This document shows, one piece after another, positions 1-59,740 of a stretch of DNA of 64,000 nt (its first letter is position 1; every line of letters begins with the position of its first letter). The position numbers were made by a program, and so were the translations under genes. The notes beneath the pieces were generated by a model, which saw nothing but the letters and a program-made list of their open reading frames with translations, had not been told where the DNA came from and did no database searches. Source of the stretch: Malacoraja senta (taxonomy: Eukaryota); assembly GCA_038087875.1 (NCBI GenBank), contig CM075990.1, positions 248,001 to 312,000 on the forward strand. The letters run 5' to 3'.

Positions 1-752
1 TGTCATCATTTGACACCATTTTGAGTGTACATTGATGACACAAAAGTAGAGATTGTTGAAAGCTTTAAGTTCCCAGGAGTAAGTATCACCAGAAATTTGC
101 ACCAACCCATATTGGAGCAACGACCAAGAAAGCACACCAATGGCTCTACTTCCTTAGAAGGCTGAGGAAGTTTGGCATGTCCCCAACAACTGCCACCAAC
201 TTTTACAGATGCTCCATATAAAGCATTTTATCAGGGTACGTCACAGCTTGTTTTGGGAGCAACTCCATCCAAGACCGCAAGAAATTGCAGAGAACTGTGG
301 ACGCAGCCCAGACCATCACACAAACCAACCTCCCTTCCATTAACTACATTTACACTTCACGCTGCCTCGGCAAGGCCAGCAGCACAATTAAAGACGAGTC
401 TCACTCCCTCTTCTCCCCTCTGCCATCAGGCAAGTGGTACAGAAGTGTGAAAACGCACACCTCCAGATTCAGGGACTTTCACCCCAACTGTTATCAGGCA
501 ACTGAAACATCCAAGCAACAACAAGAGAGAGACGTCCTGGGCTACCATCTACCGCACTGGAGACTCTTGGACTATCTTTAATCAGACTTTACTGGACTTT
601 ATCTTGCACTAAATGTTATTCCCTTTATCATGTATCTGTACACTGTGGATGGCTCAATTGTAATCATGTATCATCTTTCTGCTGACTGGTTAGCATGCAA
701 CAAATGCTCTTCACTGCACCTTTGCACATGTGACAATAAACTAAACTAATCT
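1..752 (+). mobile_element. Rex1/Babar-like non-LTR retrotransposon, degraded 3' fragment
   Basis: Broken frames give RT C-terminal motifs (KKAHQWLYFLRRLRKFG; LPSGKWYRSVKTHTSRF). The 3' end has GTGACAATAAA and a (CTAAA)n tail. Confidence 0.75.
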
Positions 753-981
753 AAAATAGTAAGATTGAAAGAGAACTTGCCAGTTTGAAGTTTGATCTAT
801 ATTTTATGAGGAGTTACGATGAGCGATTACGTGAAGAAGAAGGCCGTCAGCACACATGCGCGTCAATCTTCAAAGCAGTGGTGTGAAATCACAGATAACA
901 GTTGTTGAACTAACATAGTAAGATTAGAGATGACTAGAACTACCAGATAATCTTTATGATACGAGGGTTGGAAGCGGTGGG

Positions 982-1095
982 CACGTAATCGCTCATCGTA
1001 ACTCCTCATAAAATAAAGATCAAACTTCAAACTGGCAAGTTCTCGTTTAATCTTACTATTTTACTTCGGAGTCACGTGAGTGACTAAGTGAAGAT
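982..1095. repeat. DIRS internal complementary region (ICR), copy 1
   Basis: 982-1062 is the reverse complement of 753-833, and 1059-1095 is the reverse complement of about 5603-5638. The two halves join at TTTT. Confidence 0.92.
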
Positions 1096-1278
1096 TTTGA
1101 AGCTCTGTGATTTCATGCCGTGGATATGAGTCCGTGCGTCACACACTGCATCAGTTGACCAGGATGAGTGAAAATAATTAATGCATTCAGACATGACATA
1201 GACAAAAAATGCTGATGCTTTAATAATCAAAGAAAATAATAGTGACCTCTCCCCCAGGGGGAAACTATAAAACAGAAC

Positions 1279-2189
1279 TTAAAATAGAATTAGCAAAAGC
1301 CCCGGTCTGGCGATAGGTTTGTTATAAAAGCTTTGGTACGTCAGTTCATTAGACCATCCTGCAGCCACTAGAATGTGGTCGAGAGGGACGTCCATATCCC
1401 TCGCTGCTGACGTAGATGCAGCCCTGGTGGAATGAGGTTTAAAAGTGTCAGTGTCCACTCCTGCACATGCCAGAACCTGTTTTATCCATCTTGAAATGGT
1501 CTGTACTGTAACCTTCCTATGAGGTTTTGTGTAGATGATGAATAAAGATAATTCCGAGCCTCTGAGGCTCTCAGTGACCTTAATGTATTGTAGTATTGTG
1601 TAACTACACACAACCGTAGGTCTAAGGGGTATGCCATAAAAAATAATTTGAGCCCCGACACCCCTGGTCTGCTCTGCTTAATTAAATCATAAACAAAAAA
1701 GGTAATATTGTCAAAAGATGTAACCATGCTGTCCAGTCTTAGTTTATTTAACGTCTGGACCAGTTACGCTGAAACCAGCGCCATGAGCATGACTACCTTA
1801 AGAGTGAGATGAGGCAGAGATAGCGATGAAGCTGGAGCCCACTGGCGAAGCAGCGTGAGAACCACGCTCACATCACATATCTGCGAATATCGGGGCCTAG
1901 GGGGAGTGGAGTTAAAAATGCCCTTCATAAATCTTGTTATTAAGGGGTGAGATCCGACAGTGTGGTTCCCTGACCCCAGCCATAAGTAAGATGATAAAGC
2001 GCTCCTAGCACTATTAATGGCACTATAACTGAGTTTCTGGTCGTAGAACAGTGTAGAAAGGAAGTCCAAAACATCCGTAATGGAAGCCGTGTCATACGAA
2101 ATTTTCAAGAGAGAGCAGTACATCTCCCATTTCCTTATATGAGTGATGTACTGTTTCTGGGTACTCTTCCTCCAGGCCGCAGTGATCAC
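1279..2189 (-). pseudogene. DIRS tyrosine recombinase (frameshifted, split over ORFs 1764-2189, 1482-1727, 1279-1611)
   Basis: N-terminal integrase core-binding region (LSYSAINSARSALS, HPLITRFMKG). Catalytic-type motifs FKPHSTRAAS (HxxR) and AAGWS...FY. Confidence 0.93.
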
Positions 2190-2233
2190 ATCTACCGTAC
2201 GATCTGAAAGTCCGAGCCCCAGGAACGGTCTCC

Positions 2234-2644
2234 TCAGAACATGGAAACCAATAAATTGATTCGGTCATGTAGAGGATGGTTTTCCCCTGTCACAGGATGA
2301 ACCAGCAGATTCCTGCTATTGGGGACAGCCATAAAAGGCTGTGTAATCATACCTAGGATGAGTGGGAACCAATGCTGTGTAGGCCAGTCTGGTATTACCA
2401 ATATGCCAGAAGCAGAGTCTTGCTTGATCTTGGCCAAGCACCGACTTATGAGGCAAAATGGGGGAAAGGCATACAAGAACTTTCCACCCCAGTGTAGTGA
2501 GAAAGCATCTACTGCCACTGCCCCTGGGTCTGGTTCCCATGAAACGTAATTAGGTAACTGGTGATTTAGTCTAGATGCAAACAAGTCGATATCCGTTATG
2601 CCATACCGAGCGACAATGTCGTTAAACACTTCATGGTTCAACAT
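2234..2644 (-). pseudogene. DIRS methyltransferase-like (N6-adenine MTase-like) domain
   Basis: DIDLFASRLN...DAFSLHW...YAFPPF...VIPDWPTQHWF, directly downstream of RNase H as known for DIRS1-group elements. Confidence 0.85.
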
Positions 2645-2647
2645 CCA

Positions 2648-4237
2648 TTATTTGTTGTCATTGAATTCCCGTGACCTGGTGTCCACCACTGTGTTATATT
2701 TACCTGGTAAGTAGATAGCTGAAACCCAGATGTTTCTCGTAATACACCAGTGCCAAATAAGGTTAGACAATTTAACACAGGATACAGACTTAATTCCACC
2801 CATGTGATTAATGTATGCCACCGCTGTAGTTTTGTCAATCTGAAGTTGAACATGCACATGTTGCATATTGCTACAATAACCTTTAGCCCATAGAGTGCTC
2901 CCAACAACTATAAGTAGTTAATACCATGTGGCTGAAGAATTAATGATTCCTGCATATTCCATCTGCCACCGCAGCTTGAAACGGTATTGGTAGCACCCCA
3001 TCCTAGAGCACTAGCATCAGTTTGTAGGATAACTGATGGTGTATCAACTAAAATTGTATTGGAGCAATGCCGAACATTGGTCACCCACCATTGTAACTCA
3101 GCAATGGCTTCAGCTGGCAACCGCATAGGTCTACCGAAGTGACCTTTATGAAGTTTGAATGCCTGCTCCTTTGCACGTTTTAAGTTTTGGTAGTGCAAAG
3201 GCCCGAACCGAGCAGCTGGGAAAGCAGCCACTAATTTGCCAATTATACTAGCCGCATGTCTAATAGAAGGTTGGTCCTTAACAATGAGATTGTCACAGGC
3301 TTCAATTAATTCTAATTGCTTGCCCCTAGGCTGAGTCACAGACATGTGAATAGAATTAATGGTGAATCCCAAATAATCAATTACTCTAGATGGTACCAAT
3401 TTGGATTTAACTGGATGGATGAGGAACCCCAATCTCTCAAACATGAGTTTGGTAGCTGACACAGATAATTCAGCTAATTTCATAGTTTTCCCTATGATAA
3501 GGATGTCATCCAAGTATGCCATGACAATATGATTCTGTGCCCCGAGTAGCCCCAGGACTGGTTTTTAGCAATTTAGTGAATAATCTGGGGGCTGAGGTTA
3601 CCCATTAGGCAATGCTTTAAACTGCCACAATTGCCCCATCCAGCTAAACTTCAAATATCTCCAGTGATCACCATGAATGGCCACTGAAAAAGTATGCATC
3701 TTTGAGGTAGATGCATGCCATATAACATCCTTTGGAAACCAGTTGTTTGGCAGTAACAAAGTTTTCCATTTTGAAGTGTTTATACTGCACAAAGGTGTTA
3801 AGCTCAGTCAAGTCAAGGATGATTCGGCATCCTCCATCCTTCTTTTGCTTAGTAAATATATTGGACACAAATTGGTGAGGCTCATGACACGACATCTCAA
3901 TTACCCCTTTTTTGTGTAAAGATTCAAATTCAGCTTGCGCATCCGCACACTCCTGTTGTGAAAGAACAAATGTGCGGTTTGGTGTATGCTGTGTGGCTGG
4001 AGGCGAATTGAGAAGGAACTCAATTTAGAAACCTTGTATATTGTGCAGTATAAACGGATCTGAAGTTATCCAATGCCATTCATTCAAGAAAAATTGTAAT
4101 CTCCCCGCAACTTGTAACTGATCCATAGACAATGTGTTCCGCAAACAACCAGACTCACTTACCTCAATGGTTATTGGCGGTATGGTGTTAGTTTCTGCCC
4201 CCGAGGTCTGGGGGGTAGGACTGTTGGAGGGTGCCAT
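2648..4237 (-). pseudogene. DIRS reverse transcriptase and RNase H (several frameshifts)
   Basis: KKDGGCRIILDL, FKME, LKDAY, ALPNG, AYLDDILI, YLGF; RNase H motifs TDASALGWGA and IDKTTAVAYINHMGG. Confidence 0.93.
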
Positions 4238-5645: not shown

Positions 5646-7973
5646 TAGAAACATAGAAACATAGAAAATAGGTGCAGGAGTAGGCCATTCGGCCCTTCGA
5701 GCCTGCACCGCCATTCAATATGATCATGGCTGATCATCCAACTCAGTATCCCGTACCTGCCTTCTCTCCATACCCCCTGATCCCTTTAGCCACAAGGGCC
5801 ACATCTAACTCCCTCTTAAATATAGCCAATGAACTGGCGAGTTCCAGAGATTCACCACTCTCTGTGTGAAAAAGTTTTTCCTCATCTCGGTCTTAAAGGA
5901 TTTCCCCCTTATCCTTAAGCTGTGACCCTTTGTCCTGGACTTCCCCAACATCGGGAACAATCTTCCTGCATCTAGCCTGTCCAACCCCATAAGAATTTTC
6001 TACGTTTCTATAAGATCCCCTCTCAATCTCCTAAATTCTAGCGAGTATAAGCCAAGTCTATCCAGTCTTTCTTCATATGAAAGTCGTGACATCCCAGGAA
6101 TCAGTCTAGTGAACCTTCTTTGCACTCCCTCTATGGCTATAATGTCCTTCCTCAGATTTGGAGACCAAAACTGTACGCAATACTCCAGGTGTGGTCTCAC
6201 CAAGACCCTGTACAACTGCAGTAGAACCTCCCTGCTCCTATACTCAAATCCTCTTGCTATGAAGGCCAACATACCATTCGCTTTCTTCACTGCCTGCTGC
6301 ACCTGCATGCCTACTTTCAATGACTGGTGTACCATGACACCCAGGTCTCGCTGCATCTCCCCATTTCCTAATCGGCCACCATGTAGATAATAGTCTGCTT
6401 TCCTGTTTTTGCCACAAAAGTGGATAACCTCACATTTATCCACATTATACTGCATCTGCCAAACATTTGCCCACTCACCCAGCCTATCCAAGTCACCTTG
6501 CAGTCTCCTAGCATCCTCCTCACAGCTAACACTGCCCCCCAGCTTAGTGTCATCTGCAAACTTGGAGATGTTGCCTTCAATTCCCTCATCCAGGTGATTA
6601 ATATAAATTGTAAATAGCTGGGGTCCCAGCACTGAGCCTTGCGGTACCCCACTAGTCACTGCCTGCCATTGTGAAAAGGACCCGTTTACTCCTACTCTTT
6701 GCTTCCTGTTTGCCAGCCAGTTCTCTATCCACATCAATACTGAACCACCAATACCGTGTGCTTTAAGTTTGTATACTAATCTCTTATGTGGTACCTTGTC
6801 GAAAGCCTTCTGAAAGTCCAGATACAACACATCCACTGGTTCTCCCCTATCCACTCTACTAGTTACTTCCTCGAAAAATTCTATAAGATTCGTCAGACAT
6901 GATTTACCTTTCGTAAATCCATGCTGACTTTGCCCAATGATTTCACCACTTTCCAAATGTGCTGCTATCCCATCTTTAATAACTGACTCTAGCAGTTTCA
7001 CCACTACCGATGTTAGACTAACTGGTCTGTAATTCCCCGTTTTCTCTCTCCCTCCCTTCTTAAAAAGTGGGGTTACGTTTGCTACCCTCCAATCCTCAGG
7101 AACTACTCCAGAATCTAAAGAGTTTTGAAAAATTATCAATAATGCATCCACTATTTCTGGAGCTACTTCCTTAAGTACTCTGGGATGCAGCCTATCTGGC
7201 CCTGGTGATTTATCGGCCTTTAATCCATTCAATTTACCCAACACCACTTCCCGACTAACCTGGATTTCACTCAGTTCCTCCATCTCCTTTGACTCCCCCT
7301 GCTATTTCCGGCAGATTATTTATATCTTCCTCAGTGAAGACGGAACCAAAGTAGTTATTCAATTGGTCCGCCATATCCTTGTTCCCCATGATCAATTCAC
7401 CTGTTTCTGACTGCAAGTGACCTACATTTGTTTTAACTAATCTCTTTCTCTTCACATATCTATAAAAACTTTTGCAGTCAGTTTTTATGTTCCCTGCCAG
7501 TTTCCTTTCATAATCTATTTTCACTTTCCTAATTAAGCCCTTTGTCCTCCTCTGCTGGTCTCTGAATTTCTCCCAGTCCTCTGGTAGGCTGCTTTTTCTG
7601 GCTAATTTGTACGCATCATCTTTTGCTTTGATATTATCCCTGATTTCCCTTGTTATCCACGGATGCACTACCTTCCCTGATTTATTCTTTTGCCAAACTG
7701 GGATGAACAATTTTTGTAGTTCATCCATGCAGTCTTTAAATGCCTTCCATTGCATATCCACCGTCAACCCTTTTAGAACTAATTGCCAGTCAATCTTGGC
7801 CAATTCACGTCTCATACCCTCAAAGTTACCTTTCTTTAAGTTCAGAACCATTGTTTCTGAATTAACAATGTCACTCTCCATCCTAATGAAGAACTCAACC
7901 ATATTATGGTCACTCTTGCCCAGGGGGGCACGCACAACAAGACTGCTAACTAACCCTTCCTCATTACTCAATA
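5646..7973 (-). mobile_element. CR1-clade LINE, 5'-truncated young copy
   Basis: ORF2 endonuclease tail (GKSDHNMV) plus RT. CR1-type 3' UTR with a (CTATGTTT)n tail at 5646-5670. Confidence 0.95.
6000..7283 (-). CDS. CR1 ORF2 reverse transcriptase domain (427-aa open segment)
   Basis: KSPGPD, NYRPVSLTS, QHGF, YLDFQKAFDKV, GVPQGSVLGP, KFADDTKL motifs are all intact. Confidence 0.93.
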   Translation of the reverse strand: MEELSEIQVSREVVLGKLNGLKADKSPGPDRLHPRVLKEVAPEIVDALLIIFQNSLDSGVVPEDWRVANVTPLFKKGGREKTGNYRPVSLTSVVVKLLESVIKDGIAAHLESGEIIGQSQHGFTKGKSCLTNLIEFFEEVTSRVDRGEPVDVLYLDFQKAFDKVPHKRLVYKLKAHGIGGSVLMWIENWLANRKQRVGVNGSFSQWQAVTSGVPQGSVLGPQLFTIYINHLDEGIEGNISKFADDTKLGGSVSCEEDARRLQGDLDRLGEWANVWQMQYNVDKCEVIHFCGKNRKADYYLHGGRLGNGEMQRDLGVMVHQSLKVGMQVQQAVKKANGMLAFIARGFEYRSREVLLQLYRVLVRPHLEYCVQFWSPNLRKDIIAIEGVQRRFTRLIPGMSRLSYEERLDRLGLYSLEFRRLRGDLIET

Positions 7974-8384
7974 ATTGCCTCAAGTAAAAGGCAAACTGTT
8001 GGAAGAACTCAAAGGGTCAGGTAGTATCTGTGGAGGGAAATAGACAGACGATGTTTCAGATCCAAACAACTTCCTCACACTCTTGTGTCTCCAGTTTATT
8101 GCTCTGCAGTCTCTTGCTTCTGCAATCTAAACTAATCCAATTTATCACCACTTAGCCCTTAGTTGACTATGCCTTGACAGTATGGGTGCTTGGTTTAAGA
8201 ATGTTTTCATTACACAATGCATTCAGCTCTGTTAGACTGGAGCAAGAAAAGCCAAAATACTGTAGATGCTGGAAATGTGAAATAAAAATAGAAAATACCA
8301 GAAACACTCAGCAGGTCAGACAACATCGGTGGAATGAGAAACAATTAGAGGTCAAAGACCATTTAACAGGTATTGATGACAGGT

Positions 8385-19733: not shown

Positions 19734-20302
19734 TAACTCTCTCTTGAAAACATCTAGTGAATTGGCCTCCATTGCCTTATGGGGCAGAGAATTCCACAGA
19801 TTCACAACTCCTTGGGTGAAAACATTTCTCCTCATCTCAGTCTTAAATGGCCTACCCCTTATTCTTAAACTGTGACCCTGGTTCTGGACTCCCCCAATAT
19901 GGGGAACATTTTTCCTGCATCTAGCCTGTTCAGTCCTTTATGTTTCTATAAGATACCCTCTCATCCTAAATTCCAGTCAATGCAAGCACAGTCGACCCAT
20001 TCTTTCTTACAAGAAGTTAAGTGAACAGTTTCATTTTCTGCTCGCAGCGGCGAACCTGTCCTTTTGCCGCACCTGGCAGCAGGCGGCCCCACCTTTCTCG
20101 ATGGCCCCTCCACCCCCTGTTGGATCCCCCCTTTGTTCCCGCTGCCCCCCAATGCTGGCCCCCCTCATCGTTCTCGGCGCCCCTCCCTTTATCAGGATGA
20201 TGAAGCTTCAAAGGAAAGCTCGAAGCAACTCCCACTGCTAGTTATTTGTGTAAAAGTGTATTCATCTCCTTTCGGATCAAAGCTTCTGGATTATTTCTGA
20301 TT

Positions 20303-20438
20303 CTTCTTCTTTCGTGTGGCGAGCTCAGCCTAAAGTTGTTGGACAACTTGTTCTATTTGATCTTCCGTTTGTGCACGTCGAGTTGATTGCATTAGTCGAA
20401 ACAGGGCGGACCACGTGAAGGTTGCAATCTTCCACCCC
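20303..20438 (-). mobile_element. 136-bp SINE-like retroposon headed by an HDV-like ribozyme
   Basis: Perfect 14-bp TSD GATTATTTCTGATT (20289-20302, 20439-20452). The minus-strand 3' end is ...AAAGAAGAAG. Confidence 0.88.
20385..20438 (-). ncRNA. Minimal HDV-like self-cleaving ribozyme (54 nt, predicted)
   Basis: GGGGUGG(P1) AA GAUUGCA(P2) ACC(P3) UUCACGU(L3) GGU(P3') CCGCCCU(P1') G UUUCGA C UAA UGCAAUC(P2'). Nested double pseudoknot with a G1-U wobble and a C in J4/2. Confidence 0.85.
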
Positions 20439-20889
20439 GATTATTTCTGATTGACTCTGCTGAAGAAATTTGACAAGTCATTTAAAATCACACAAAATTC
20501 CCTCCTTTGGAAGCAACTGTTTATCAGCTGGTCAGGAAAGTATCCGCGTTCTGAAGGCGGTGTAGAATTCCTTACTGGTGCAGAGACAAGCCGCTTGTTG
20601 TTGCTTTGCCATTAGTTCATGACAGCAACATGACAATTATTTCAAAATATATGCACTTTTCCCTTCCAAAATGCCCACGGGAAAATATTATTTGCTGTAT
20701 GTGCTATGCTAATAAAACAGTCACATTTTTGTCCCATTGCTTCACGTTAGGTAACTGAAATGGATGAAAGAATTCAGAGTTTGCCTTGATGGTGGGAAGG
20801 CCAGAGAGATGAAAAGCAGAGCAAATATAAAGTATCTAACCATTAAAAATGAGGAAACCCAATGAGATATAGTTCCCAATGAACATTGT

Positions 20890-23890: not shown

Positions 23891-24715
23891 TCAGTGCATG
23901 TGTGAGTTCAGAGAGGTTATGGCTTTTGGAAAGCAACTGTTCTTGAGTCTATTTGTCCTTGTTCTGATGCACCTATAGCGCCTCCCTGAGGGCAGCAGGT
24001 CAAACAGGCCAAATGCAGGATGGGAGCTGTCCTTAATGATGTTCTTCGCCCTGCTGAGGCAGCGGGAGGTGTAAATGTCCATCAGGGAGGGGAGAGGGCA
24101 GCCAATGATCTTCTGTGCTGCCCTAACTACCCTCTGGAGCCTCTCCTTGTCTGCCATGGTGCAGCTGCCGTACCATGCTGTAATGCAGTATGTAAGCAGG
24201 CTCTCAATGAACGAGCGGTAGAAGGTCAGCAGCAGGTTGGAGTCCAGGTTGTGCTTCCTGAGAACCCTCAGGAAGTGCAGCCGCTGCTGAGCCTTCTTGA
24301 TGATCGCTGTGATGTTGTCTGTCCAGGAGATGTCAGCGGAGATGAGGACGGCGAGAAACCGGAAGGTGTAGACCCTCTCCACACACTCGCCGTTGATGTA
24401 TAGGGGGGCTAAGTCGGTGCTGTGCCTCCTGAAGTCGACAATGAGCTCTTTTGTTTTCTTGGTGTTCAGAGCCAAGTTGTTTTCTGAGCACCAGGCTGTC
24501 AACTTCAGGACTTCCCCTCTATAGGCTGCCTCGTCTCCCCTTGAGATAAGTCCGACTACTGTAGTGTCGTCAGCAAACTTGACGATGCGGTTGTTGTTGT
24601 GGGCCGGACTACAGTCGTGGGTGTAGAGACAGTATAGGAGGGGGCTTAGCACACAGCCCTGTGGGGAGCCGGTACTCAACATGCGAGTGGAGGAGAGGTG
24701 GGGGCCAAGTCTCAC
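23891..24715 (-). CDS. Rex1/Babar reverse transcriptase C-terminal half
   Basis: [44 protein letters not shown]. Confidence 0.88.
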
Positions 24716-24832
24716 TGTCTGGGGCCGGTTGGTGAGGAAGTCCTTTATCCAGGCACATGTGAGAGTGGGGAGGCCGAGAGTGACCAGTTTATCGATGAGA
24801 ATGTCCGGAATGATAGTATTGAAAGCTGAGCT

Positions 24833-26591
24833 TTTGGTGTATCGGAGTGTTCAACCATGAATAGGGTAGAGATGACTGGAGAGACAGTGGACAGCTCGGA
24901 AAGACGGCAACCGGGGTGGGGCGGGTTGGCAGCCCAAATCGCATCCTCTGAGAGGAGGAGACCCAAATCACGCTACAGAAAAAGACATGGAAAAATACCC
25001 CCGGGGTGCCCGAGATGGGGGGGGAGGATGAGCACCCCAATTTGACGGATCAAAGGTTAATGACTAATGGAAATGGACAACCAACTATGAGTATCAAATG
25101 CAGATGTGGAAAGGTCTGAAAGAACAGCCGAGGCCTGAAGATTCACCAGCCCCGGATGAAGTGTTTGGAGGGAGAGGGTGTTTCACATCGCACAGGTATT
25201 TTACCTGGTGAGACGCAGGAGGAGCCGGGCCCGGAATCACCCCATAGAGCCCGAAGCCTCCAAGTGGCGCAACTAGTCGCTCAGAACAGTTCTCCGGGGA
25301 AAGGTTCGAGTCAAATGGCCACAGGCCTGCAAGACGGCAGTCTGGCATCAGTTCGACGAGGACGTCGACAAGGTGCTAGAAGCAACTACTAAGGGAGACG
25401 TGGACCGAAGGCTGCGGACGATGATAACAACCATCATCAGCCTAGCTGTGGAAAGGTTTGGAGCAGTGGAGAAGATGCCAGCCAGAACACCTTTCACCAT
25501 GAACCAACGAGCAACAAAGATCCACAAGATCCGGCAGGAGCTGAAGTCCCTCAAGAAGCAGTATAAAGAGGCCAGCGAAGTGCAATGTCCCCCCTTGGCT
25601 GAGCTGCAAACCATCCTGAGGAAGAAGCTGATGACCCTTCATAGAGCTGAGTGGCACCGAAGACGCCGGAAGGAAAGAGCCAGGAAGCGAGCATCCTTCA
25701 TAGCCAACCCTTTCGGCTTCACCAAACAACTGCTGGGGCAGAAGCGCAGTGGGAGTTTGGCTTGCTCTAAGGAGGAGATCGACCAGCACATCCAGACGAC
25801 CTACAGTGACCCCGTCAGGCAGCAGGAGCTGGGCCAGTGCAACATCCTGATAAAACCACCTCCACCCATCAAGGAGTTTGATAGTAGAGAGCCACTCCTG
25901 AAAGAGGTCCAGGACGTTGTGAAAAGAGCAAGATCTGGCTCAGCCCCTGGCCCAAGCAGAGTCCCCTACAGGGTCTACAAGAACTGCCCTTTGTTACTGA
26001 AACGGCTGTGGAAGATCCTGAAAGTCATCTGGAGGTGAGGGAAAGTGGCGCAGCAGTGGCGATTCGCTGAAGGAGTCTGGATCCCAAAGGAAGAAGATTC
26101 CAAGAAGATCGATCAGTTCAGGATCATCTCCTTGTTAAGCGTTGAAGACAAGATCTTCTTCAGCATAGTGGCGAGGCGGCTGACCAACTTCCTCTCCAGC
26201 AATGGCTACATCGACAGCTCAGTGCAAAAGGGAGGCTTGTCTGGAGTGCCGGGGTGTCTAGAGCACATGGGAGTGGTGACCCAGCTCATCAGAGAAGCCA
26301 GGGAGAACAAGGGAAACCTGACAGTGCTCTGGCTTGACCTGGCCAACGCCTACGGCTCCATCCCGCACAAGCTGATCCAGACAGTTATGGCCAAGCATCA
26401 TGTGCCGGGCCAAGTGGCAGATCTCATCCTGGACTATTACAACCAGTTCAGCATGAGTGTCTCATCAGGGTCAGTAACATCAGAGTGGCACAGACTGGAA
26501 GTTGGGATCATCACAGGCTGTACCCTCTCTGTGATCCTTTTTGCCTTGGCGATGAACATGATCGTCAAGTCTGCTGAGCCAGAGTGCCGGG
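24833..26591 (+). mobile_element. HERO-like (R2-group) non-LTR retrotransposon, 5' part, pseudogenised
   Basis: N-terminal zinc finger CRCGKV*KNSRGLKIHQPRMKC (about 25098-25165). RT motifs SAPGPS, WIPKE, FRIISLLSVE, QKGG..GCLEH, WLDLANAYGSIPH, GIITGCTLS. The element ends before the YxDD motif. Confidence 0.85.
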
Positions 26592-26656
26592 GCAGTCTCG
26601 ACCCGAAACGGCACCTACTCCTTTTCTCCCAAGATGCTGTCTGACCCGCTGAGTTA

Positions 26657-32215: not shown

Positions 32216-33055
32216 TGATCGGACTTTGCTGGCTTTACCATGCACAAAACGTTCATCCCTTATCATGGACTTGATAAGTTGTAAATAGCTCGATTGGAAT
32301 AATGTAATGTCTTTCCGCTGACTGGATAGCACACAACAAAAGCTTTTCACTGTACATTGGTACACATAACAATAAACTAAACTAAACTAAACTAAGTTCA
32401 TCAACTTCATGACTAATTTCTATCCTGAACTCAAATTCACTTGGACCATCTCCGACAACTGCCTACTGTTTCTGGACCTCACCTGTCCCGCTGAGTTACT
32501 CCAGCATTTTGTGTCTATTTCCAAGTCTTTTCAACCATTCCCTACAGCTAACACCCCCCAATCCAGGCATAATTCTGATAAACCTCCTCTGCATCCTATC
32601 CAGACCTTCCACATCCTTCATGTAATGGGGTGACTAGAGCTGCGTGCAATATATAAAATGCGGCCTTACCAAAGTCTTATAAAGCTGCACCATGAGATGC
32701 AAAGGACTTGGTTAGAAAGTTTGTGGTGAATGTACTGAGGGAAAAGTGAAGAGAAAGAAAATAGAGTGGAGAGGCTGTGACAGGTGCAGATACAATGAGG
32801 GAAGGATGAGGTGGGGTTAGTGACTGAGGCAAAGTGAGAGAACAGTGAAAATACATTCATGTAGTGAAGGGTAGAAGGTAATAGCCAGAGTTCCGTTAGA
32901 GTTCAGAGGAGATATTGGGAAAGTAGGAACTGGATAGGGCAAAATGATAGGAGTGCCCTGGGTAGAAATATAATTGGATTTACTAACTGAGTTAGTAATT
33001 TTGTGCATTTTCCAGCATTTTGTGTCTACTAAACTAAGATGGCTGGGCAAGCTAT

Positions 33056-36000
33056 ATAATAGTTAGATTAAATGAGAACTTACCAGATTGAAGTTTGATC
33101 TTTTTTTTATGAGGAGTTACGTTGGTGATAACGTGACGAAGTCCCGTCAGAGCGCATGCGCGTCAATCTTCAAAGCAGCGGTATGAAATCACAGATAACA
33201 GAATATTTGAAGTAACATAGTAAGATCAGCAACATGAGAACTACCATATGGCCTTTATGAGAGAGATGGTTGGGCATGGTGGCACGTAATCACCAACGTA
33301 ACTCCTCATAAAATAAAGATCAAACTGGTAAGTACTCGTTTAATCTTACTATTTTACTTCGGAGTCACGTGAGTGATTCCGTGAAGAGTTCAAAGCTCTG
33401 TGATTTTATGCCGCAGATTCAAATCCCGGCTTCTCACTGCATTGATTGCGTTAAACATGAAATTGAATATCATGCAGTAACAATTGATTTAAATAATCAA
33501 AACAATAACCCCTCTACCCCAGAGGAAACTTAAACAGAACTTAATACTGAATTTGCAAAAAGCCCTCAATCGGCAATCGGCCGATGGTAAAAATTGTTGA
33601 AAAAACAATTCATTTGACCACCTGTAAGAATATGGTCGATGGGAACATCCATCGCCCTGGCCACCGACGTTGCTGCTGCACAAGTGAAAATGAGATGTAT
33701 ACACGTCAGTGTTAATACCTGCCTGAATCAACACTTGGTTTAACCACCTTGACATAGTCTGCACTGACACTCTCTTGTGTGGTTTCTTGTAACTGATAAA
33801 CAATCCTGTATCCACATGTCTTAAGGTCCTTGTAGCTTCAATATAATGTAATACATGTGTCCTTACACATCAACATGGATCAGTAGGTTATGCTGAAAAC
33901 ACAATTTTAAAACCTGTGACACCTGGCCTGCTCTGCTTGAGCAGGTCGTAAATATATAACATAACATTCTCTTCAGCCACCTCCATCCTGTCTAGCTGAA
34001 GCTTTTGCAAAATCTGCACTCGCTATGCTGAACCAATGCCATGAGCATGACCACCTTCATGGTGAGTTTGGCCAATTCAGAGACGTGACAGGAACCCACT
34101 GTCAAAGCATCTTGAGGACCACACTTACATCCCAGATCGCCATATACCTGGGTTTGGGAGGTTTGGAGTTGAAATTCCTTTCATCAATCGAGCTATGAGA
34201 GGATGAAAATCCAATAGGATCTTTTCCTGACCCCATCAAAACACGAGGACAAAGCACTTAAAGCTGTATTAATGGCGCTATAACTGAGCCCCTCGTCATA
34301 GTAGAGTGTCGACAGGAACTCTAAAACATCCACAATACCTGCAGTACTATAGTCAATATTATTTTGTACACAATATTGCTCCCATTTTTTTATATAAGTA
34401 ATATACTGCTTTTGAGTACTCTTTCTCCAGGCTGCAGCGAGCATGTCCACCGTTCGGCCAGACAGTCCTCGCCCCAGGTATGGCCTTCTTAAAACCTGCA
34501 AATTAACAAGTCAATACGGTCACATAACGGATGACTTTCCCGTGTTAGCGGATGCTCCAGTAAATTCCTATGCTTGGGAACCACCAAAGGAGGTTGGATC
34601 GCTAACTGTAACATCAAAGGAAACCATGCTTGAGTCGACCAATTAGGTATTACAAGCACCCCCGAAGTGGCATCCTGCTTGATTTTTTCCAGACTCCGAC
34701 CTATGAGGCAGAATGGTTTGAAAATATATTAAAAAACATACCACCCCAATGTAGCGAGAAAGCGCCAATTGCAACTGCCCCCTGGTCTGGTTCCCATGAA
34801 ACATATTTAGGCAGCTGGTGGTTAAGCCTTGATGCAAAACAAATCAATATCTGGCATTCATATATAAGTACTTTATTATTGAACACCTCGTGGTTCAACA
34901 TCCAATCTGTGTTGTCATGGAACTTTCGTGACCTGGCATCTGCTACTATGTTGAATCTACCTGGTAGATAAATAGCTGGAAACCAAATATCATTATCAAT
35001 ACACCAGGCCCAAATTTGATTAGCCAATCTGTCACAAGATGCTGACTTGATTCCACCCATGTGATTAATATATATGCCACTGCCGTATTATTGTCAATCT
35101 GAAACTGAACATGCAGGTTACCTTTGTTAGAGCAATAAGCCTTATCCATAAAAAGCTCCTAAACACTCTAAATAGTTAATTCCCCAAGTCTGCAGAAGCA
35201 ATGCCTCTTGCTCAGTCCATCTGCCTCCACAGCTGAAACTCGTATCCGTGGCACTCCACCCGAGTGCACTGACATTCATCTGCAAAATCATGGAAGGCTG
35301 CTCAAGCACTATCTTGCTCGAACTACTGGACAAATGCTGAAGCCACCATTGCAAATCAGAAACAGCCTCTGCTGATAACTGCATGGGTCTATTATAATGA
35401 CCCGAATGTATCCTTAGTGCCTCCATTAGCTTGATACAGCTGTCAATTAGCTCTACCCTTTCTCCCTGGGCAGAGTCACTACCATGTTAATTGAATCAAT
35501 TGTGACCCAAATAGTCAGGTGTTCATTTGGATTTCTCTGGATGTATAATGCCCAATCTTTTAAAAGTGGATTTAACAACTACCACCGGTTACTTCAGCTG
35601 TTTGTCTTGGATACCCCTGTAATGAAGATATAATCGAGATATGCCATGAGCACATGACCCTGGCCTCTCAAAATGCCTAGTATATGTTTTACAAATGTTG
35701 TGCCATTGTTGATCCATCCAGGTGAATTTCAAATGTCTTCTATCCTGCAAATGAACAGACACTGAGTAATACGCATCTTAAGCTCTATAGTCGCCATATA
35801 GCATCCTCTGGACCCAGTTGCTTGGCAGTGAAAATGTTTCCATCTTAAAATGTCTATACTGCATCCCCCATCCTTTTTTGACCTGGGAAAAAATATTAGA
35901 CACAAATTGATGGAGGTGGTGAACCGACTTTCCAATTACACCTTTATCGCATAAGCTTTCAAGCGCAGCCTGAACCTCCATCTGTTCTGTTAATGAAAAC

Positions 36001-37728
36001 TGAAAAATTCTCCCAGGAAACATGCTTAATGTGCAAATCACAATTTGGATTGAACTACATTCAAAACCCTTGAATAAAACTCAGTATAAACAGATCTGAG
36101 GTGATTTGCTTCCATTCATCCCGAAACAGATGTAATGTACCCCCAGATTTTAGTTGTGTCACATTTGATATGTGCACCTGAGAACCAGGCCCACCTACCT
36201 CATTGGTACCTGGTGGATCCCGTTGTCCCCGGGCCCTGGCGGGAAGCCCCACGTTTGACCGTGTTCCCGCTGCAGAATGCCACCTGCGCATCTGCATTAC
36301 CGGCCGACTTGTTCCTGGTCCACACCAATCTGTCCCTCATTTGTAGTGGTACTTTTTTTTTTGGAAACTTGCCGACCGCCGGTGGCTTGATCAAGCCCAC
36401 CGTCTTTGCCTCATCATCCATCTCCTTGACACGCTTGGCGAGGTCCTCTCCGAAGAGTAGGTTGGCCGGCTGTATGTTGCTGGACTGGCAGAGTGCTGCA
36501 AACTTGGGATTAATGGTGGGCCGAATGGCACTTTCCCTGAGACAATTTATCTCAGAATGGGCACTACAAAGCAACCCTAGTACCTCTTGCTGCGTCTCCG
36601 ACAGATGCCCTCCATCCACCGTTCTAGCGAACGCCGTGATTCCTGAGTCAAGTAGTTTCAGGAATCTCTGCAGCTTCATCTCCTGGGCACGCATGCCCAT
36701 GCCCATCTGGCTCCTTATCACCCGGTTCACTGCTGGCACCTTCAGCAACACGCAGTTCCCCGGGTCTCCTGTTTCTTGGCGGTCCAGACTCTGACGGGAC
36801 AGCGAATCGTGCTGCCAGAGATAAGACCTCTGACAACGGCTGTCTTCGCTTGGCTCCAACTCACCGTCAGAGTCGGGGTCAGAACTCAGCTGACCCTCTG
36901 CAGTCGCCTTTTCAATGAAGGTGCTAACAAGCAGCCCTCTATATTATGGAGGCCAGCTCATCTCCCAGTGGCTCTCCATTCTCTGACGGGACAGCGAATA
37001 GTGCTGCCTGAGATGGGACCTCTGACAACGGCCGTCTTCGCTAGGATCGAAGTCACCATCAGAGTCGGGGTCAGAACTCAGCTGACCCTCTGCACTCGCC
37101 TCTCCAATGAGGGTGCTATCAAGCAGCCCTCTACCAGGTACTGCCGGGGCGGCCTCTTCTGCAGCCTGCCGCCCACACGACTCCTCCCCCCGGAGGGTGT
37201 GTTGCTGGAGCAACCCCTGTATGAGGTGCTCCATTTGGAATAACCATTCAAAAACGGTATCCAGCCCCGTACGGGACTCGTCGCGGCCCGACTCAGTTGA
37301 GTCCGAGGGCCTCGCAGACTTTTCCATGGCCTTAAGCCCGACTGGCGTTGGCTCTGTGCTTTGCAGCATCAAGTCTGCAGTCTCCCCGCTCCCGGTCGGC
37401 GACTGTGCAGGGGTACCAGGCAGCCACTCACAGACCGCACTCCCGCGGCTCTCTTTTGCTTTACCTGCGGCTCCCCTCCCCCTGGTCGTCTTGTCCATGG
37501 TGCTTCCTGAAAAAACCCCAACAGAGCACGGCACCACAGCAAAACAACTTCTCACTCCAGCTAAGTTTTCCCACTTAGCTGGAGTTTTTAAAAGTAATTT
37601 AAAACTACTTACCACAGGAGGAGCTCTGTCCTCCCGCTGGTCCGTGCGCCAATGCGTCAGACGTAATGACGCGCATGCACTCTGGCGGGACTTCTTCACG
37701 GAATCACTCACGTGACTCCGAAGTAAAA
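33056..37728 (-). mobile_element. DIRS1-like retrotransposon, second subfamily, more degraded
   Basis: YR, MT, RNase H/RT and gag remnants are collinear with copy 1. ICR at 33283-33387 is complementary to both termini. Confidence 0.93.
36788..37135. repeat. Internal direct duplication (about 155-bp units, about 193 bp apart) in DIRS gag
   Basis: CTCTGACGGGACAGCGAAT...AAGCAGCCCTCTA at about 36789-36941 and 36981-37133. Confidence 0.85.
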
Positions 37729-38160
37729 TCATAGATTCATACAGCATGGAGCCAGGCCCCTCGGCCAACACATCCATGCCGACCAAGCTAGTTCCACTTG
37801 CCCGCAAGGCAAATGCGTTGTACGGCAGCAAATCTACCGCGGCATGGTGGATGCCGTCGGCACTCGTGGATAATCTTCATGCCAAATTACGCCACTACAA
37901 CCTCCCGGCTCAGTCTTCCGCAGCTAGAAATAATGGTGACGTATCGTGCCGTCTTCATGGCGGATCTAGTCCATCGTGGAGAGCTGTCAGAGGAGGTCAA
38001 CAGCCTGATTTTCTGGGCAGGAATTGGAATAAGAGCATGCCGCTGGTGCTCTCCAACATCAGGTGGAAAGCCGGCATTGGCCGCGGTATTGTAAAACCAC
38101 CAGCATTCATTCCGAGCTGACACTTCATGTCCATGTTTTACAAGTCCCATCTGGTGCCTT

Positions 38161-55918: not shown

Positions 55919-58900
55919 TGGGCCTGTCCCTCTTAGGCTATTTTTCAGCGGACTGCCGGCGACTGTCAAGTTACCGGCAGTCACCTGAAAAACCGGCAAC
56001 TGGAACGGTGACTGTCAGAGTGGAACACAGACACACACAAACACATCGCTTCCTTTACCAGCCCGTTATGAAGGCAGGGGACAGGGCAAGTGAACCTGAG
56101 GGGGACCAATATCCTGGCGGGGAGATTTGCAAAGGCTACTGGGGAGACTTTAAACTAGAATGGTTGGGGGGAGGGACTCAAATAGAGAAAGCTATTAGAC
56201 AGTGTGTGAGGCAGGAGGCAGAGAAGGAAAGCACTCAGACCCAACATGTAGGGGGGAAAGAAGTAAACAATATTAAACAGAGAATAAGAGGTGGTGGGGT
56301 TCTTAAATGGGTGAGCAGAGATACAGAGGGATGTAAAATGCGGGCGGAAGCAATAGGTAGCAAGGTGAAAAGTAAAAGTGGCAGGACGACAAATCCAGGG
56401 CAAAAATCAAAAAGGACCAAGGCTGGGAGCTGAACATCCAGGGATATTCAATATTCAGGAGGGATAGAGAGAAAGGAAAAGGAGGTGGGGTAGCGTTGCT
56501 GGTTAGAGAGGAGATTAACGCAGTGGAAAGGAAGGACATTAGCTTGGAGGATGTGGAATCGGTATGGGTAGAGCTGCGAAACACTAAGGGGCAGAAAACG
56601 CTGGTGGGTGTTGTGTACAGGCCACCTAGCAGTAGTAGTGAAGTTGGGGATGGCATCAAACAGGAAATTAGAAATGCGTGCAACAAAGGCAAAACAGTTA
56701 TAATGGGTGACTTCAATCTACATATAGATTGGGTGAATCAAATTGGCAGGGGTGCTGAGGAAGAGGATTTCTTGGAATGTATGCGGGATAGTTATCTAAA
56801 CCAACATGTAGAGGAACCAACGAGAGAGCAGGCTATTCTAGACTGGGTATTGAGTAATGAGGAAGGGGTAGTTAGCAGTCTTGTTGTGCATGCCCCCTTG
56901 GGCAAGAGTGACCATAATATGGTTGAGTTCTTCATTAGAATGGAGAGTGACATTGTTAATTCAGAAACAATGGTTCTGAACTTAAAGAAAGGTAACTTTG
57001 AGGGTATGAGACGTGAATTGGCCAAGATTGACTGGCAATTAGTTCTAAAAGGGTTGACGGTGGATATGCAATGGAAGGCATTTAAAGACTGATGGATGAA
57101 CTACAAAAATTGTTCATCCCAGTTTGGCAAAAGAATAAATCAGGGAAGGTAGTGCATCCGTGGATAACAAGGGAAATCAGGGATAGTATCAAAGCAAAAG
57201 ATGATGCATACAAATTAGCCAGAAAAAGTAGCATACCAGTGGACTGGGAGAAATTCAGAGACCAGCAGAGGAGGACAAAGGGCTTAATTAGGAAAGGGGA
57301 AAAAATATTATGAAAGAAAACTGGCAGGGAACATAAAAACTGACTGCAAAAGTTTTTATAGATATTTGAAGAGAAAGAGATTAGTTAAAACAAATGTAGG
57401 TCCCTTGCAGTCAGAAACAGGTGAATTGATCATGGGGAACAAGGATATGGTGGACCAATTGAATAACTACTTTGGTTCCGTCTTCACCAGGGAAGACATA
57501 AATAATCTGCCGGAAATAGCAGGGGACAAAGGAGATGGAGGAACTGAGTGAAATCCAGGTTAGTCGGGAAGTGGTGTTGGGTAAATTGAATGGATTAAAG
57601 GCCAATAAATCACCAGGGCCAGATAGGCTGCATCCCAGAGTACTTAAGGAAGTAGCTCCAGAAATAGTGGATGCATTAGTGATAATTTTTCAAAACTCTT
57701 TAGATTCTGGAGTAGTTCCTGAGGATTGGAGGGTAGCAAACGTAACCCCACTTTTTAAGAAGGGAGGGAGAGAGAAAACGGGGAATTACAGACCAGTTAG
57801 TCTAACATCGGTAGTGGGGAAACTGCTAGAGTCAGTTATTAAAGATGGGATAGCAGCACATTTGGAAAGTGGTGAAATGATTGGACAAAGTCAGCATGGA
57901 TTTACAAAAGGTATTGGGGGTTCAGTATTGATGTGGATAGAGAACTGGCTGGCAAACAGGAAGCAAAGAGTAGGAGTAAACGGGTCCTTTTCACAATGGC
58001 AGGCAGTGACTAGTGGGGTACCGCAAGGCTCAGTGCTGCGACCCCAGCTATTTACAATTTATATTAATGAACTGGATGAGGGAATTGAAGGCAACATCTC
58101 CAAGTTTGCGGATGACACTAAGCTGGGGGGCAGTGTTAGCTGTGAGCAGGATGCTAGGAGACAGCAAGGTGACTTGGATAGGCTGGGTGAGTGGGCAAAT
58201 GTTTGGCAGATGCAGTATAATGTGGATAAATGTGAGGTTATCCACTTTGGTGGCAAAAACAGGAAAGCAGACTATTATCTAAATGGTGGCCGATTAGGAA
58301 AAGGGGAGATGCAGCGAGACCTGGGTGTCATGGTACACCAGTCATTGAAAGTAGGCATGCAGGTGCAGCAGGCAGTGAAGAAAGCGAATGGTATGTTAGC
58401 TTTCATAGCAAAAGGATTTGAGTCTAGGAGCAGGGAGGTTCTACTGCAGTTGTACAGGGTCTTGGTGAGACCACACCTGGAGTATTGCGTACAAATCTGA
58501 GGAAGGACATTATAGCCATAGAGGGAGTGCAGAGAAGGTTCACCAGACTGATTCCTGGGATGTCAGGACTTTCATATGAAGAAAGACTGGATAGATTCGG
58601 CTTATACTCGTTAGAATTTAGGAGATTGAGAGGGGATCTTATAGAAACTTACAAAATTCTTATGGGGTTGGACAGGCTAGATGCAGGAAGATTGTTCCCG
58701 ATGTTGGGGAAGTCCAGGACAAGGGGTCACAGCTTAAGGATAAGGGGGAAATCCTTTAAGACCGAGATGAGAAAAAACTTTTTCACACAGAGTGGTGAAT
58801 CTCTGGAACTCTCTGCCACAGAGGGTAGTTGAGGCCAGTTCATTGGCTATATTTAAGAGGGAGTTAGATGTGGCCCTTGTGGCTAAAGGGATCAGGGGGT

Positions 58901-59740
58901 ATGGAGAGAAGGCAGGTACGGGATACTGAGTTGGATGGTCAGCCATGATCATATTGAATGGCGGTGCAGCCTCGAAGGGCCGAATGGCCTACTCCTGCAC
59001 CTATTTTCTATGAATCTATGTAAACGGGGGGAGCATTGTCTAAAAAATTCACACGGTGTAAAAGCCAAGGTGATGCAGACACACACCGCGATGAACAGGA
59101 AGGTTGGCGCTGTAATTAAGATGGGTAAAGCACAGTGTACGTTAAGTCCTTTAAAAGTGAGGGGGAGAGGGGGGGGGAGAGCGGGGGGAGAGGGGGAAGA
59201 GGGGGGGGAGAGGGGGGGAGGCTTGGGGGGTGGGTCGTCGGGGGGGGGGGGGGGGGGTCGTGGGGGGGGGGGGTAGAAAGGGGGAGAAAGAGTGCAGACA
59301 ACTTTTAAGAAGCCAGAGATACATGGCTGTGAAGCTCGGCGGACATTTAACATTACCGGTCGGTTATCCTTGGTTCTGAAAACTACTGCTTACCTTTTTG
59401 TTCCCCACTGAGCCAATGAAATTCACCGGTCAGCACCGGCTACAATCAATGAGAACCTACGAGAACCTTCAACCTCCTGGCAACCCATTAGGATCTCCTG
59501 CCGACCCACCTACGGCACGAGAATTTTCGCTGCTCTCCATGGCGGCTTAATTCTAGTCGCCGCTAATTTTTCAACATGTTGAAACATTTGCTGCGACCAT
59601 AATGAGGCCGCGACTAGTTCCCAGAATGCGGGAACTCCTCACGACCATGAAGGCGACTCCCTGGCAAATACCCGCGAACATGTGGCAACTGCATAGTCTC
59701 CTGCAGTCGCCTGAAAAATCGCCTAAGTGGGACAGGCCCA
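55919..59740. mobile_element. PIF/Harbinger-like MITE (same family as 18994) split by a CR1 insertion
   Basis: TIR TGGGCCTGTCCC; TGA TSD at 55916-55918 and 59741-59743. Both halves match 18994-19733. Confidence 0.82.
56091..59021 (+). mobile_element. CR1 LINE, young copy with internal deletions
   Basis: End of ORF1 (GTNILAGRF, esterase-type), APE endonuclease 56496-57092 (GGGV, VYRPP, MGDFN, SDHN), RT 57535-58500, and 3' tail. Nearly identical to 5646-7973. Confidence 0.95.

What the first reader, a model, noticed from the sequence alone, without database searches (positions are those of the whole stretch)
20289..20452. Tiny retroposon whose 5' end is a complete minimal HDV-like ribozyme
Seen in sequence: a 136-bp insert (20303-20438) between perfect 14-bp direct repeats, ending in AAGAAGAAG on the minus strand. 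Its first 54 nt read GGGGUGG-AA-GAUUGCA-ACC-UUCACGU-GGU-CCGCCCU-G-UUUCGA-C-UAA-UGCAAUC. This gives a 7-bp P1 with G1-U wobble, a perfect 7-bp P2, a 3-bp P3, a 7-nt L3, a one-pair P1.1, a vestigial UUCG P4 and a J4/2 C (20395). The predicted cleavage site coincides exactly with the insertion boundary. Established knowledge: HDV-like ribozymes (HDV, CPEB3, R2 and RTE 5' ends) share this nested double pseudoknot, cut 5' of G1, and release retroelement RNAs from read-through transcripts. The L3 resembles that of CPEB3. Inference: this is a promoterless SINE-like family that cuts itself out of host transcripts and uses a LINE RT via its 3' ~80 nt (AAG tails suggest RTE). I see no tRNA, 7SL or 5S head. 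I cannot tell from here whether it has been described.
Basis: partly seen in the sequence, partly recalled or inferred. Interest (0 to 1): 0.9.

Follow-up and report, generated by a model that had tools for sequence, protein, structure and literature searches.

The report
Ribozyme-headed mini-retroposon from Vingi-like LINE
This 136-base jumping element is the two ends of a longer Vingi-type retrotransposon joined together, starting with an unusually small hepatitis-delta-type self-cutting RNA fold, so it is a new, very compact animal example of a known kind of parasite element.

Summary
A 136-nt insert (20303-20438, minus strand) lies between perfect 14-bp repeats. Its first 54 nt parse as an HDV-like nested double pseudoknot with no real P4. 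It belongs to a family of at least about 1,400 genome candidates with two age classes; 90 of 99 distinct loci start exactly at the predicted cleavage G.

The partner is not RTE. It is a 2.8-3.1 kb single-ORF LINE that groups with RNase-H-less (Vingi-like) elements. That LINE shares the element's first ~75 nt (91-95%) and last 39 nt (39/39 with the older subfamily), and one copy carries both ends. The element is therefore an internally deleted non-autonomous LINE, the kind known as SIDE, NARTc or bipartite Vingi/RTE.

Two more headless ribozyme families share 3' ends with other Vingi-like LINEs here. Across nine related heads, 11 of 18 pairs covary. Cleavage and lack of a promoter are untested.

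What looks new is a P4-less HDV-like fold on an animal LINE and its 136-nt parasite. Sister LINE heads score up to 64 bits on the mammalian CPEB3 ribozyme model. The scan noted ribozyme-headed retroposons before in fungal and diatom genomes, but not this sequence.

The parts
20303..20438 (-). 136-nt non-autonomous retroposon (family F1, younger subfamily)
   Evidence: 2 differences from the commonest copy type
20439..20452 (.). target-site duplication at the element's 5' side
20289..20302 (.). target-site duplication at the element's 3' side
20385..20438 (-). P4-less HDV-like ribozyme fold; predicted cut between 20439 and 20438
20432..20438 (-). P1 5' strand (pairs with 20403-20409)
20423..20429 (-). 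P2 5' strand (pairs with 20385-20391)
20410..20422 (-). P3-L3-P3 hairpin; L3 C at 20417 pairs with G at 20402 (P1.1)
20396..20401 (-). 6-nt linker in place of P4
20392..20395 (-). J4/2 with the predicted catalytic C at 20395
   Evidence: C kept in 27 of 27 young and 21 of 26 old copies with a letter there
20367..20438 (-). part derived from the 5' end of the partner LINE V1 (ribozyme plus ~20 nt of 5' UTR)
   Evidence: 93-95% identity to LINE 5' ends L250 and L244
20340..20366 (-). short middle of uncertain origin, partly a duplication of the last 5'-UTR bases
   Evidence: no match longer than 9 nt in three V1 copies
20303..20339 (-). part derived from the 3' end of LINE V1 (last codons, stop, 3' UTR, AAG-repeat tail)
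   Evidence: 33/37 for this copy and 39/39 for the older subfamily against L217 and L221

Best explanation
F1 arose by internal deletion of a Vingi-like LINE (V1), keeping only its first ~80 and last ~39 nt. Shown: shared ends, target-site duplications, a fixed 5' boundary at G1, and a covarying HDV-like fold. Inferred from the HDV-like class: a copy transcribed by Pol II, by read-through or from a weak internal start, folds the 54-nt ribozyme; C44 catalyses cleavage 5' of G1; this removes the host leader and leaves a 5'-OH RNA that begins at the element's first base. Inferred from LINE biology: a Vingi-like endonuclease/reverse transcriptase supplied in trans recognises the 3' ~39 nt and the AAG tail, primes reverse transcription at a nicked target, and leaves 8-15 bp duplications. 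Because the ribozyme lies downstream of the cut, each full-length copy inherits it.
For: Family: 1,419 first-look candidates, 40 scored, all full length at 99-100%; an older subfamily gives 1,371 candidates. Boundary: 90 of 99 distinct loci start at position 1; among 54 distinct loci picked by their 3' part alone, 45 start at position 1 and 53 within 10 nt. Contig loose ends pile up at 20438 in four runs from four coded organisms (160, 244, 423 and 7 records). TSDs were found for 74 of 90 full-length copies, median 12 bp. Partner 3' end: 7 of 19 regions fetched match F1's end, two at 39/39 (E=6e-16). Partner 5' end: 4 of 10 regions carry the head in forward orientation running into the 5' UTR and endonuclease ORF. 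L254 holds both ends on one 2.8-kb copy between 9-bp repeats. Clade: V1 groups with RNase-H-less proteins from Anolis, Branchiostoma and Strongylocentrotus at 99/100 support, apart from RNase-H-bearing, RTE, CR1 and Rex1 rows. Structure: over 9 related heads 93% of cells pair, 11 of 18 pairs change on both sides, covariation 0.617 against 0.179 shuffled (0 of 500) and 0.03-0.12 when slid. The two subfamilies differ in the 54-nt head only at linker positions 8 and 45. The LINE has U-A where F1 mostly has U.G in P1.
Against: No cleavage data, and contigs cannot show RNA ends. One contig in a run only guessed to be RNA carries a whole element inside 852 nt, which fits uncleaved read-through or DNA. 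The F1 and V1 heads do not reach any Rfam threshold. A sharp 5' end would also follow from an internal promoter, and short elements are rarely truncated. Only 13 of 27 young and 7 of 27 old copies keep all 18 pairs plus C44, so most copies have decayed. The U.G to U-A change among copies is no more frequent than other CpG decay (6 of 26 against 5 of 25). The covariation set holds related sequences aligned by MAFFT with two rows partly out of register, and the structure was derived from one of them. No named Vingi sequence was in the tree. All V1 copies seen are broken or truncated.
Confidence: 0.78

Rival explanations
1. Same origin from LINE V1, but the head works mainly as an internal Pol II promoter, like Pr77 in trypanosomes. 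The 5' end is then a transcription start, and the P4-less fold is slow or inactive.
For: In L1Tc/NARTc the same 77 nt are both promoter and ribozyme (PMC3383444, passages). F1 keeps about 75-80 nt of LINE 5' end, some 20 nt more than the ribozyme needs. F1's Rfam score is low.
Against: Compensatory changes in P1, P2 and P3 across sister families point to selection on RNA structure. Subfamily changes avoid paired positions. The two roles are not exclusive.
Confidence: 0.14
2. The younger subfamily, which includes this copy, switched to a different and more recently active Vingi-like LINE, so V1 explains the origin but not the latest mobilisation. This is compatible with the best explanation.
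For: Young copies differ from their majority at 27 of 1,426 head positions (1.9%), old copies at 80 of 1,363 (5.9%, including a polymorphic site). V1's end matches the old type (39/39). Two young-specific changes (positions 123 and 127) make the last 15 nt match the ends of other Vingi-like families (15/15 with L188). Two LINE A copies are 97.8% alike.
Against: Only two substitutions. V1 copies range from about 88 to 97% alike, so V1 activity may overlap the young subfamily. V1 heads share position 45 with the young type.
Confidence: 0.3
3. A conventional Pol III SINE with cryptic A and B boxes; the ribozyme-like fold is incidental.
For: Partial A-box and B-box matches at plausible spacing (12 of 16 specified bases) and no run of four T in F1.
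Against: The score is reached by 166 of 1,000 shuffles, and by 521 of 1,000 for the old type. Family F2 has an internal T run. No tRNA gene. The head is the 5' end of a LINE.
Confidence: 0.04
4. An RTE-mobilised element, as the first reader suggested from the AAG tail.
For: RTE LINEs exist here (PF20049, 772 candidates) and one family ends in AAG repeats.
Against: None of 8 regions fetched at PF20049 hits shares 3' sequence with F1. AAG tails are also on RNase-H-bearing LINEs and most Vingi-like families. A Vingi-like LINE shares both ends.
Confidence: 0.02

Closest known systems
Bipartite non-autonomous LINEs of the RTE, Ingi, Vingi and R2 clades (Kojima 2018, PMC5786205; section 23 read in full, passages, part of the supplement)
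   Same: Only the 5' and 3' ends of a LINE are kept, there is no ORF and no small-RNA head. The paper names Vingi as one of four clades that make such elements, cites Vingi-1_EE derivatives, and links their intact 5' ends to ribozymes.
   Different: Its list of six clades with shown 5' ribozymes (R1, R2, R4, RTE, Ingi, LOA) does not include Vingi. It does not describe a P4-less fold or this family in the text I saw.
NARTc/RIME with the Pr77-L1TcRz ribozyme of trypanosomes (PMC3383444, passages)
   Same: Short dispersed derivative sharing the first ~77 nt and last ~30 nt with an Ingi-clade LINE; HDV-like ribozyme cleaving at +1. The anatomy is nearly the same as F1's.
   Different: Protist host; L1TcRz has a P4 and shown promoter and cleavage activity; poly(A) tail. 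F1 is in an animal genome, P4-less and AAG-tailed.
R2 SIDEs and R2/R1 hybrid SIDEs of Drosophila (PMC3414825, passages)
   Same: Ribozyme at the 5' end plus a LINE 3' end, internally deleted, with cleavage shown in vitro.
   Different: Confined to 28S rDNA, longer (529 bp for R2Dwi_SIDE), low copy, R2/R1 partners. The authors call non-LTR SIDEs rare.
Minimal HDV-like (drz-Mtgn) and theta ribozymes (Kienbeck 2024, PMC10879173, passages)
   Same: Nested double pseudoknot lacking P4, with the catalytic C first in J4/2.
   Different: Reported as nearly 99% confined to Caudoviricetes phages and often next to tRNAs; no animal retroposon example in the passages seen.
Mammalian CPEB3 ribozyme (Rfam RF00622)
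   Same: Same 7-nt L3 and one-pair P1.1; sister Vingi-like heads in this genome score 51-64 bits.
   Different: F1 itself does not hit the model: its P3 and P2 differ and it has no P4. CPEB3 is a single intronic locus.

Membership tests
HDV-like ribozymes | nested double pseudoknot P1, P2, P3, P1.1 | tested here: met
   (11 of 18 pairs with two-sided change over 9 related heads)
HDV-like ribozymes | G.U (or purine-pyrimidine) pair at the cleavage site and C at the start of J4/2 | tested here: met
   G1.U36 and C44 in the window copy; C kept in 48 of 53 copies with a letter there
HDV-like ribozymes | Rfam family gathering score | tested here: not met
   16 bits against 44 for RF02682; no hit at E<=1 for L097, L244 or L250
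HDV-like ribozymes | Mg2+-dependent self-cleavage 5' of G1, lost with C-to-U | not testable with these tools
   needs an in vitro assay
Minimal (P4-less) HDV-like ribozymes | P4 absent | tested here: met
   6-nt linker in F1, V1 and F3; longer P4 regions in the other heads
Theta ribozymes | phage context, next to a tRNA | tested here: not met
   1.94-Gb eukaryotic genome, no tRNA
Bipartite non-autonomous LINE (SIDE/NARTc kind) | 5' end shared with an autonomous LINE's 5' end | tested here: met
Bipartite non-autonomous LINE (SIDE/NARTc kind) | 3' end shared with the same LINE's 3' end | tested here: met
   (both ends on L254)
Bipartite non-autonomous LINE (SIDE/NARTc kind) | marks of target-primed insertion (variable TSD, variable repeat tail), no ORF | tested here: met
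Bipartite non-autonomous LINE (SIDE/NARTc kind) | mobilisation in trans by the LINE protein | not testable with these tools
   inferred
Vingi clade (partner LINE V1) | compact single ORF, APE endonuclease plus RT, no RNase H (definition from PMC13708176, passages) | tested here: met
   Pfam on LINE A: PF03372/PF14529 + PF00078, no RNase H; V1 aligns to RNase-H-less relatives over its length in decayed pieces
Vingi clade (partner LINE V1) | groups with named Vingi elements in an RT tree | tested here: inconclusive
   starred RNase-H-less clade with an Anolis protein, but no row is labelled Vingi; 5' ends of named Vingi elements printed in the PMC5786205 supplement resemble the sister heads by eye
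tRNA/7SL/5S-headed SINE | small-RNA-derived head with Pol III boxes | tested here: not met
RTE-derived element | ends shared with an RTE LINE | tested here: not met
   (8 regions at PF20049 hits)

The most novel reading that the evidence does not exclude
Vingi-clade 5' ends are a reservoir of CPEB3-type ribozymes in vertebrates. In this genome they repeatedly spawned promoterless ribozyme-only retroposons (three families), including a 136-nt one with an active P4-less ribozyme, which places self-cleaving sites at very many loci. The same reservoir gave rise to the mammalian CPEB3 ribozyme as a domesticated 5' end of a Vingi-type element.
Probability: 0.35. Interest if true: 0.8.

Novelty: new variant of a known kind. 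Interest (0 to 1): 0.55.

Why it matters
It adds Vingi-like LINEs to the clades with 5' HDV-like ribozymes and shows three headless families in one animal genome that each share a 3' end with a Vingi-like LINE. That bears on Kojima's open question of why only ribozyme-bearing clades produce such derivatives. A P4-less HDV-like fold has so far been reported almost only from phages; here it sits on an animal LINE and on a parasite with well over a thousand candidate copies. F1 also marks natural minimal cis-signals (about 80 + 39 nt) for a Vingi-like RT, a clade now used for RNA-only gene insertion (PMC13708176, passages). The CPEB3-model matches give a testable lead on where that mammalian ribozyme came from.

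Tried and rejected
The whole genome was not available as a file, so copy numbers are lower bounds from first-look candidate counts. A 60-nt query of the head found 0 candidates, even itself, probably because its words are filtered as too common; I draw nothing from it.

RTE as partner: 8 regions at PF20049 hits, no shared end. RNase-H-bearing LINEs as partner: 20 ends, none shared. Vingi-like families near LINE A: 20 ends plus 3 whole elements share only the last 13-16 nt with F1. Loose ends in contigs did not reveal the LINE junction; 389 rows were hidden. Pol III boxes were not above shuffles.

No empty-site joint was seen in four runs. Two contigs of organism C run from the flanks 27-28 nt into the element, under the tool's 31-letter rule, so a shared insertion is suggested and not shown. 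Runs X18-X23 had small word shares and only X18 was laid; RNA status is a guess, so expression is not shown. Searches with P0146 and part of P0072 returned no answer. One script was killed without output. The L252 row was given on the wrong strand and is ignored. PDB has no close relative of LINE A; the best hit is LINE-1 ORF2p at E=8.5e-19.

Ruminski 2011 and Kojima 2011, the two papers most likely to anticipate this, are not held. Repbase and Dfam could not be searched.

Full report
Observation. The insert, its 14-bp repeats and the ribozyme parse are all as reported. A structural descriptor, written after seeing the element, finds only this site on both strands of the window and none in 12 shuffled 64-kb strands. 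Rfam's HDV-F-prausnitzii model marks the same 54 nt but at only 16 bits, E=4.4. The claimed UUCG P4 is better read as no P4 at all: a 6-nt linker.

It is a family. The window lies in a 1.94-Gb eukaryotic assembly whose window ORFs are mostly retroelement fragments; a vertebrate host is my inference from repeat content and was not tested. The 136-mer gives 1,419 first-look candidates, and all 40 scored are full length at 99-100%. A diverged copy found by chance in a flank defines an older 138-nt subfamily with 1,371 candidates. These counts are not copy numbers and may overlap. Of 99 distinct loci, 90 start at G1, and 74 of those 90 have a duplication of 8-15 bp, median 12. About half of those loci were picked with full-length queries. 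In the 54 distinct loci picked by their 3' part alone, 45 start at G1 and 53 within 10 nt; self hits and duplicated loci were left out. Head divergence is 1.9% in the window's subfamily and 5.9% in the older one. Words of the stretch occur in runs of seven coded organisms. In the four runs laid, loose ends pile up at 20438 and 20301-20302, so the boundaries hold beyond this genome.

The partner. Searching the genome with Rfam's CPEB3 ribozyme model gave 60 matches, 39 over the cut-off, and none over it in 14 control genomes. Of 20 matches fetched, four ran from the ribozyme into an endonuclease ORF. One such LINE (A) is 3.15 kb with a single ORF carrying APE endonuclease and RT domains and no RNase H. 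Its relatives are 46-63% identical proteins of about 950-1,000 aa, including ones from Anolis, Branchiostoma and Strongylocentrotus. This matches the description of Vingi in PMC13708176 (passages). A more distant relative as query led to LINE V1: 7 of 19 fetched regions match F1's end, two at 39 of 39 nt against the older subfamily and 33 of 37 against the window copy. Walking upstream, 4 of 10 5' regions carry F1's head in forward orientation and run on into the 5' UTR and ORF; one has it within a 5' inversion and five lack it. L254 holds both ends on one 2.8-kb copy between 9-bp repeats. In an RT tree of 28 rows, V1 falls in the RNase-H-less clade at 99/100; no row was a named Vingi, and the outgroup branches are long. 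RTE and RNase-H-bearing LINEs here also end in AAG repeats but share no sequence with F1.

The fold is under structural constraint. Copies decay neutrally: only 13 of 27 young and 7 of 27 old copies keep all 18 pairs and C44, and U.G to U-A in P1 is no commoner than other CpG decay. The evidence comes from master lineages. The two subfamilies differ in the head only at linker positions 8 and 45. The LINE has U-A where F1 mostly has U.G. Across nine heads from this genome (F1 twice, V1, families F2 and F3, LINEs A, B and J, one further head), 93% of cells pair, 11 of 18 pairs change on both sides, and the covariation score is 0.617 against 0.179 shuffled and at most 0.12 when slid. These rows are related and two are partly out of register, so the figures are not probabilities.

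Mechanism. Shown: bipartite origin, target-primed insertion marks, a fixed start at the predicted scissile bond, and a conserved fold. Inferred: cleavage trims the host leader from a Pol II transcript, and a Vingi-like protein copies the RNA from its 3' end. Not shown: catalytic activity, absence of a promoter, or expression. Pol III boxes are not above chance. The trypanosome Pr77 precedent (PMC3383444, passages) keeps a dual promoter-ribozyme role open.

Comparison and novelty. The kind is described: R2 SIDEs (PMC3414825, passages), NARTc (PMC3383444, passages), and bipartite derivatives of RTE, Ingi, Vingi and R2 (PMC5786205, section 23 in full, passages, part 1 of 15 of the supplement and term hits). 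PMC6765202 (passages) says some non-autonomous SINEs in metazoans use HDV-like ribozymes. What I did not find in print: a ribozyme assigned to Vingi, a P4-less fold on an animal retroelement (PMC10879173, passages, puts nearly 99% of minimal forms in phages), or this family. Ruminski 2011 and Kojima 2011 were not held, bioRxiv supplements were closed, and Repbase and Dfam were out of reach, so the family may already be catalogued. Earlier scan notes describe ribozyme-headed retroposons in fungal and diatom genomes and nothing with this sequence; I did not check them.

A wider lead. Heads of LINEs A and B score 64 and 60 bits on the mammalian CPEB3 model; LINE A shares an 18-nt identical run with the model consensus through P2, P3 and L3. 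Named Vingi 5' ends printed in the PMC5786205 supplement look similar by eye, and the human genome keeps a Vingi relic (PMC5753468, passages). No held paper contains both 'Vingi' and 'CPEB3', and PMC8233481 has no occurrence of 'transpos', 'retro' or 'origin' (term search only). Descent of the CPEB3 ribozyme from a Vingi-type 5' end is therefore a live hypothesis; convergence on a constrained core is the alternative.

Verdict. Real, well supported as a bipartite derivative of a Vingi-like LINE with an HDV-like head. New variant of a known kind; interest 0.55.

Noticed in passing
L061-L095 (for example L068:1498-1702): Family F2: a second headless element of about 200 nt with an HDV-like head with P4, an AAG tail and TSDs; 846 candidates. 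Its last 31 nt match Vingi-like LINE ends L223 and L228. The LINE's 5' end was not found.
   Followed up: partly
L160-L167, L169: Family F3: a third headless element of about 170 nt with a P4-less head that passes the CPEB3 Rfam cut-off (36.3 bits). Its last 70 aligned nt are 93% identical to LINE end L180. Copies seem to start one base inside a 7-bp P1, so the first pair may use a host base.
   Followed up: partly
L150-L159, L168, L170-L172: 5' ends of Vingi-like LINEs and related heads match the mammalian CPEB3 ribozyme model at up to 64 bits; 39 of 60 listed genome matches pass the cut-off. Possible origin of the CPEB3 ribozyme.
   Followed up: partly
L239:1108-1198, L242:981-1049, L243:419-486: In 3 of 7 LINE V1 copies only the ribozyme head (about positions 5-77) sits inverted at the 5' end, joined to the body at different points with hundreds of bases missing. 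This suggests second-strand priming on the RNA's 5' head.
   Followed up: partly
F1 loci genome-wide: The base before G1 is T in 51 of 90 full-length copies, suggesting a target or junction preference.
   Followed up: no
window 20303-20316 against LINE ends L178-L192: The younger F1 subfamily changed two of its last bases before the tail towards the end motif of other Vingi-like families; possible partner switch.
   Followed up: partly
L019, L145, L173-L192, L193-L212: AAG-repeat tails are shared by RTE, RNase-H-bearing and most Vingi-like LINE families in this genome; one Vingi-like family (L213-L216, L229-L231) lacks them.
   Followed up: no
G000 hits: Open frames of 1,008-1,014 aa (Vingi-like LINE A) and many of 1,277 aa (an RNase-H-bearing LINE) suggest recently active families.
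   Followed up: no
window 752-3564, 5651-8016, 23891-24850, 25277-26644, 33055-37876, 56376-59021: The long ORFs in the window look like retroelement fragments: two DIRS-like copies, two CR1-like, one Rex1-like and one Hero/R2-group-like. The labels are from recall of motifs.
   Followed up: no
window 20125-20329 and 20411-20620: Contigs of coded organism C run from both flanks 27-28 nt into the element, with flanks about 5% diverged, suggesting this insertion predates that split.
   Followed up: partly
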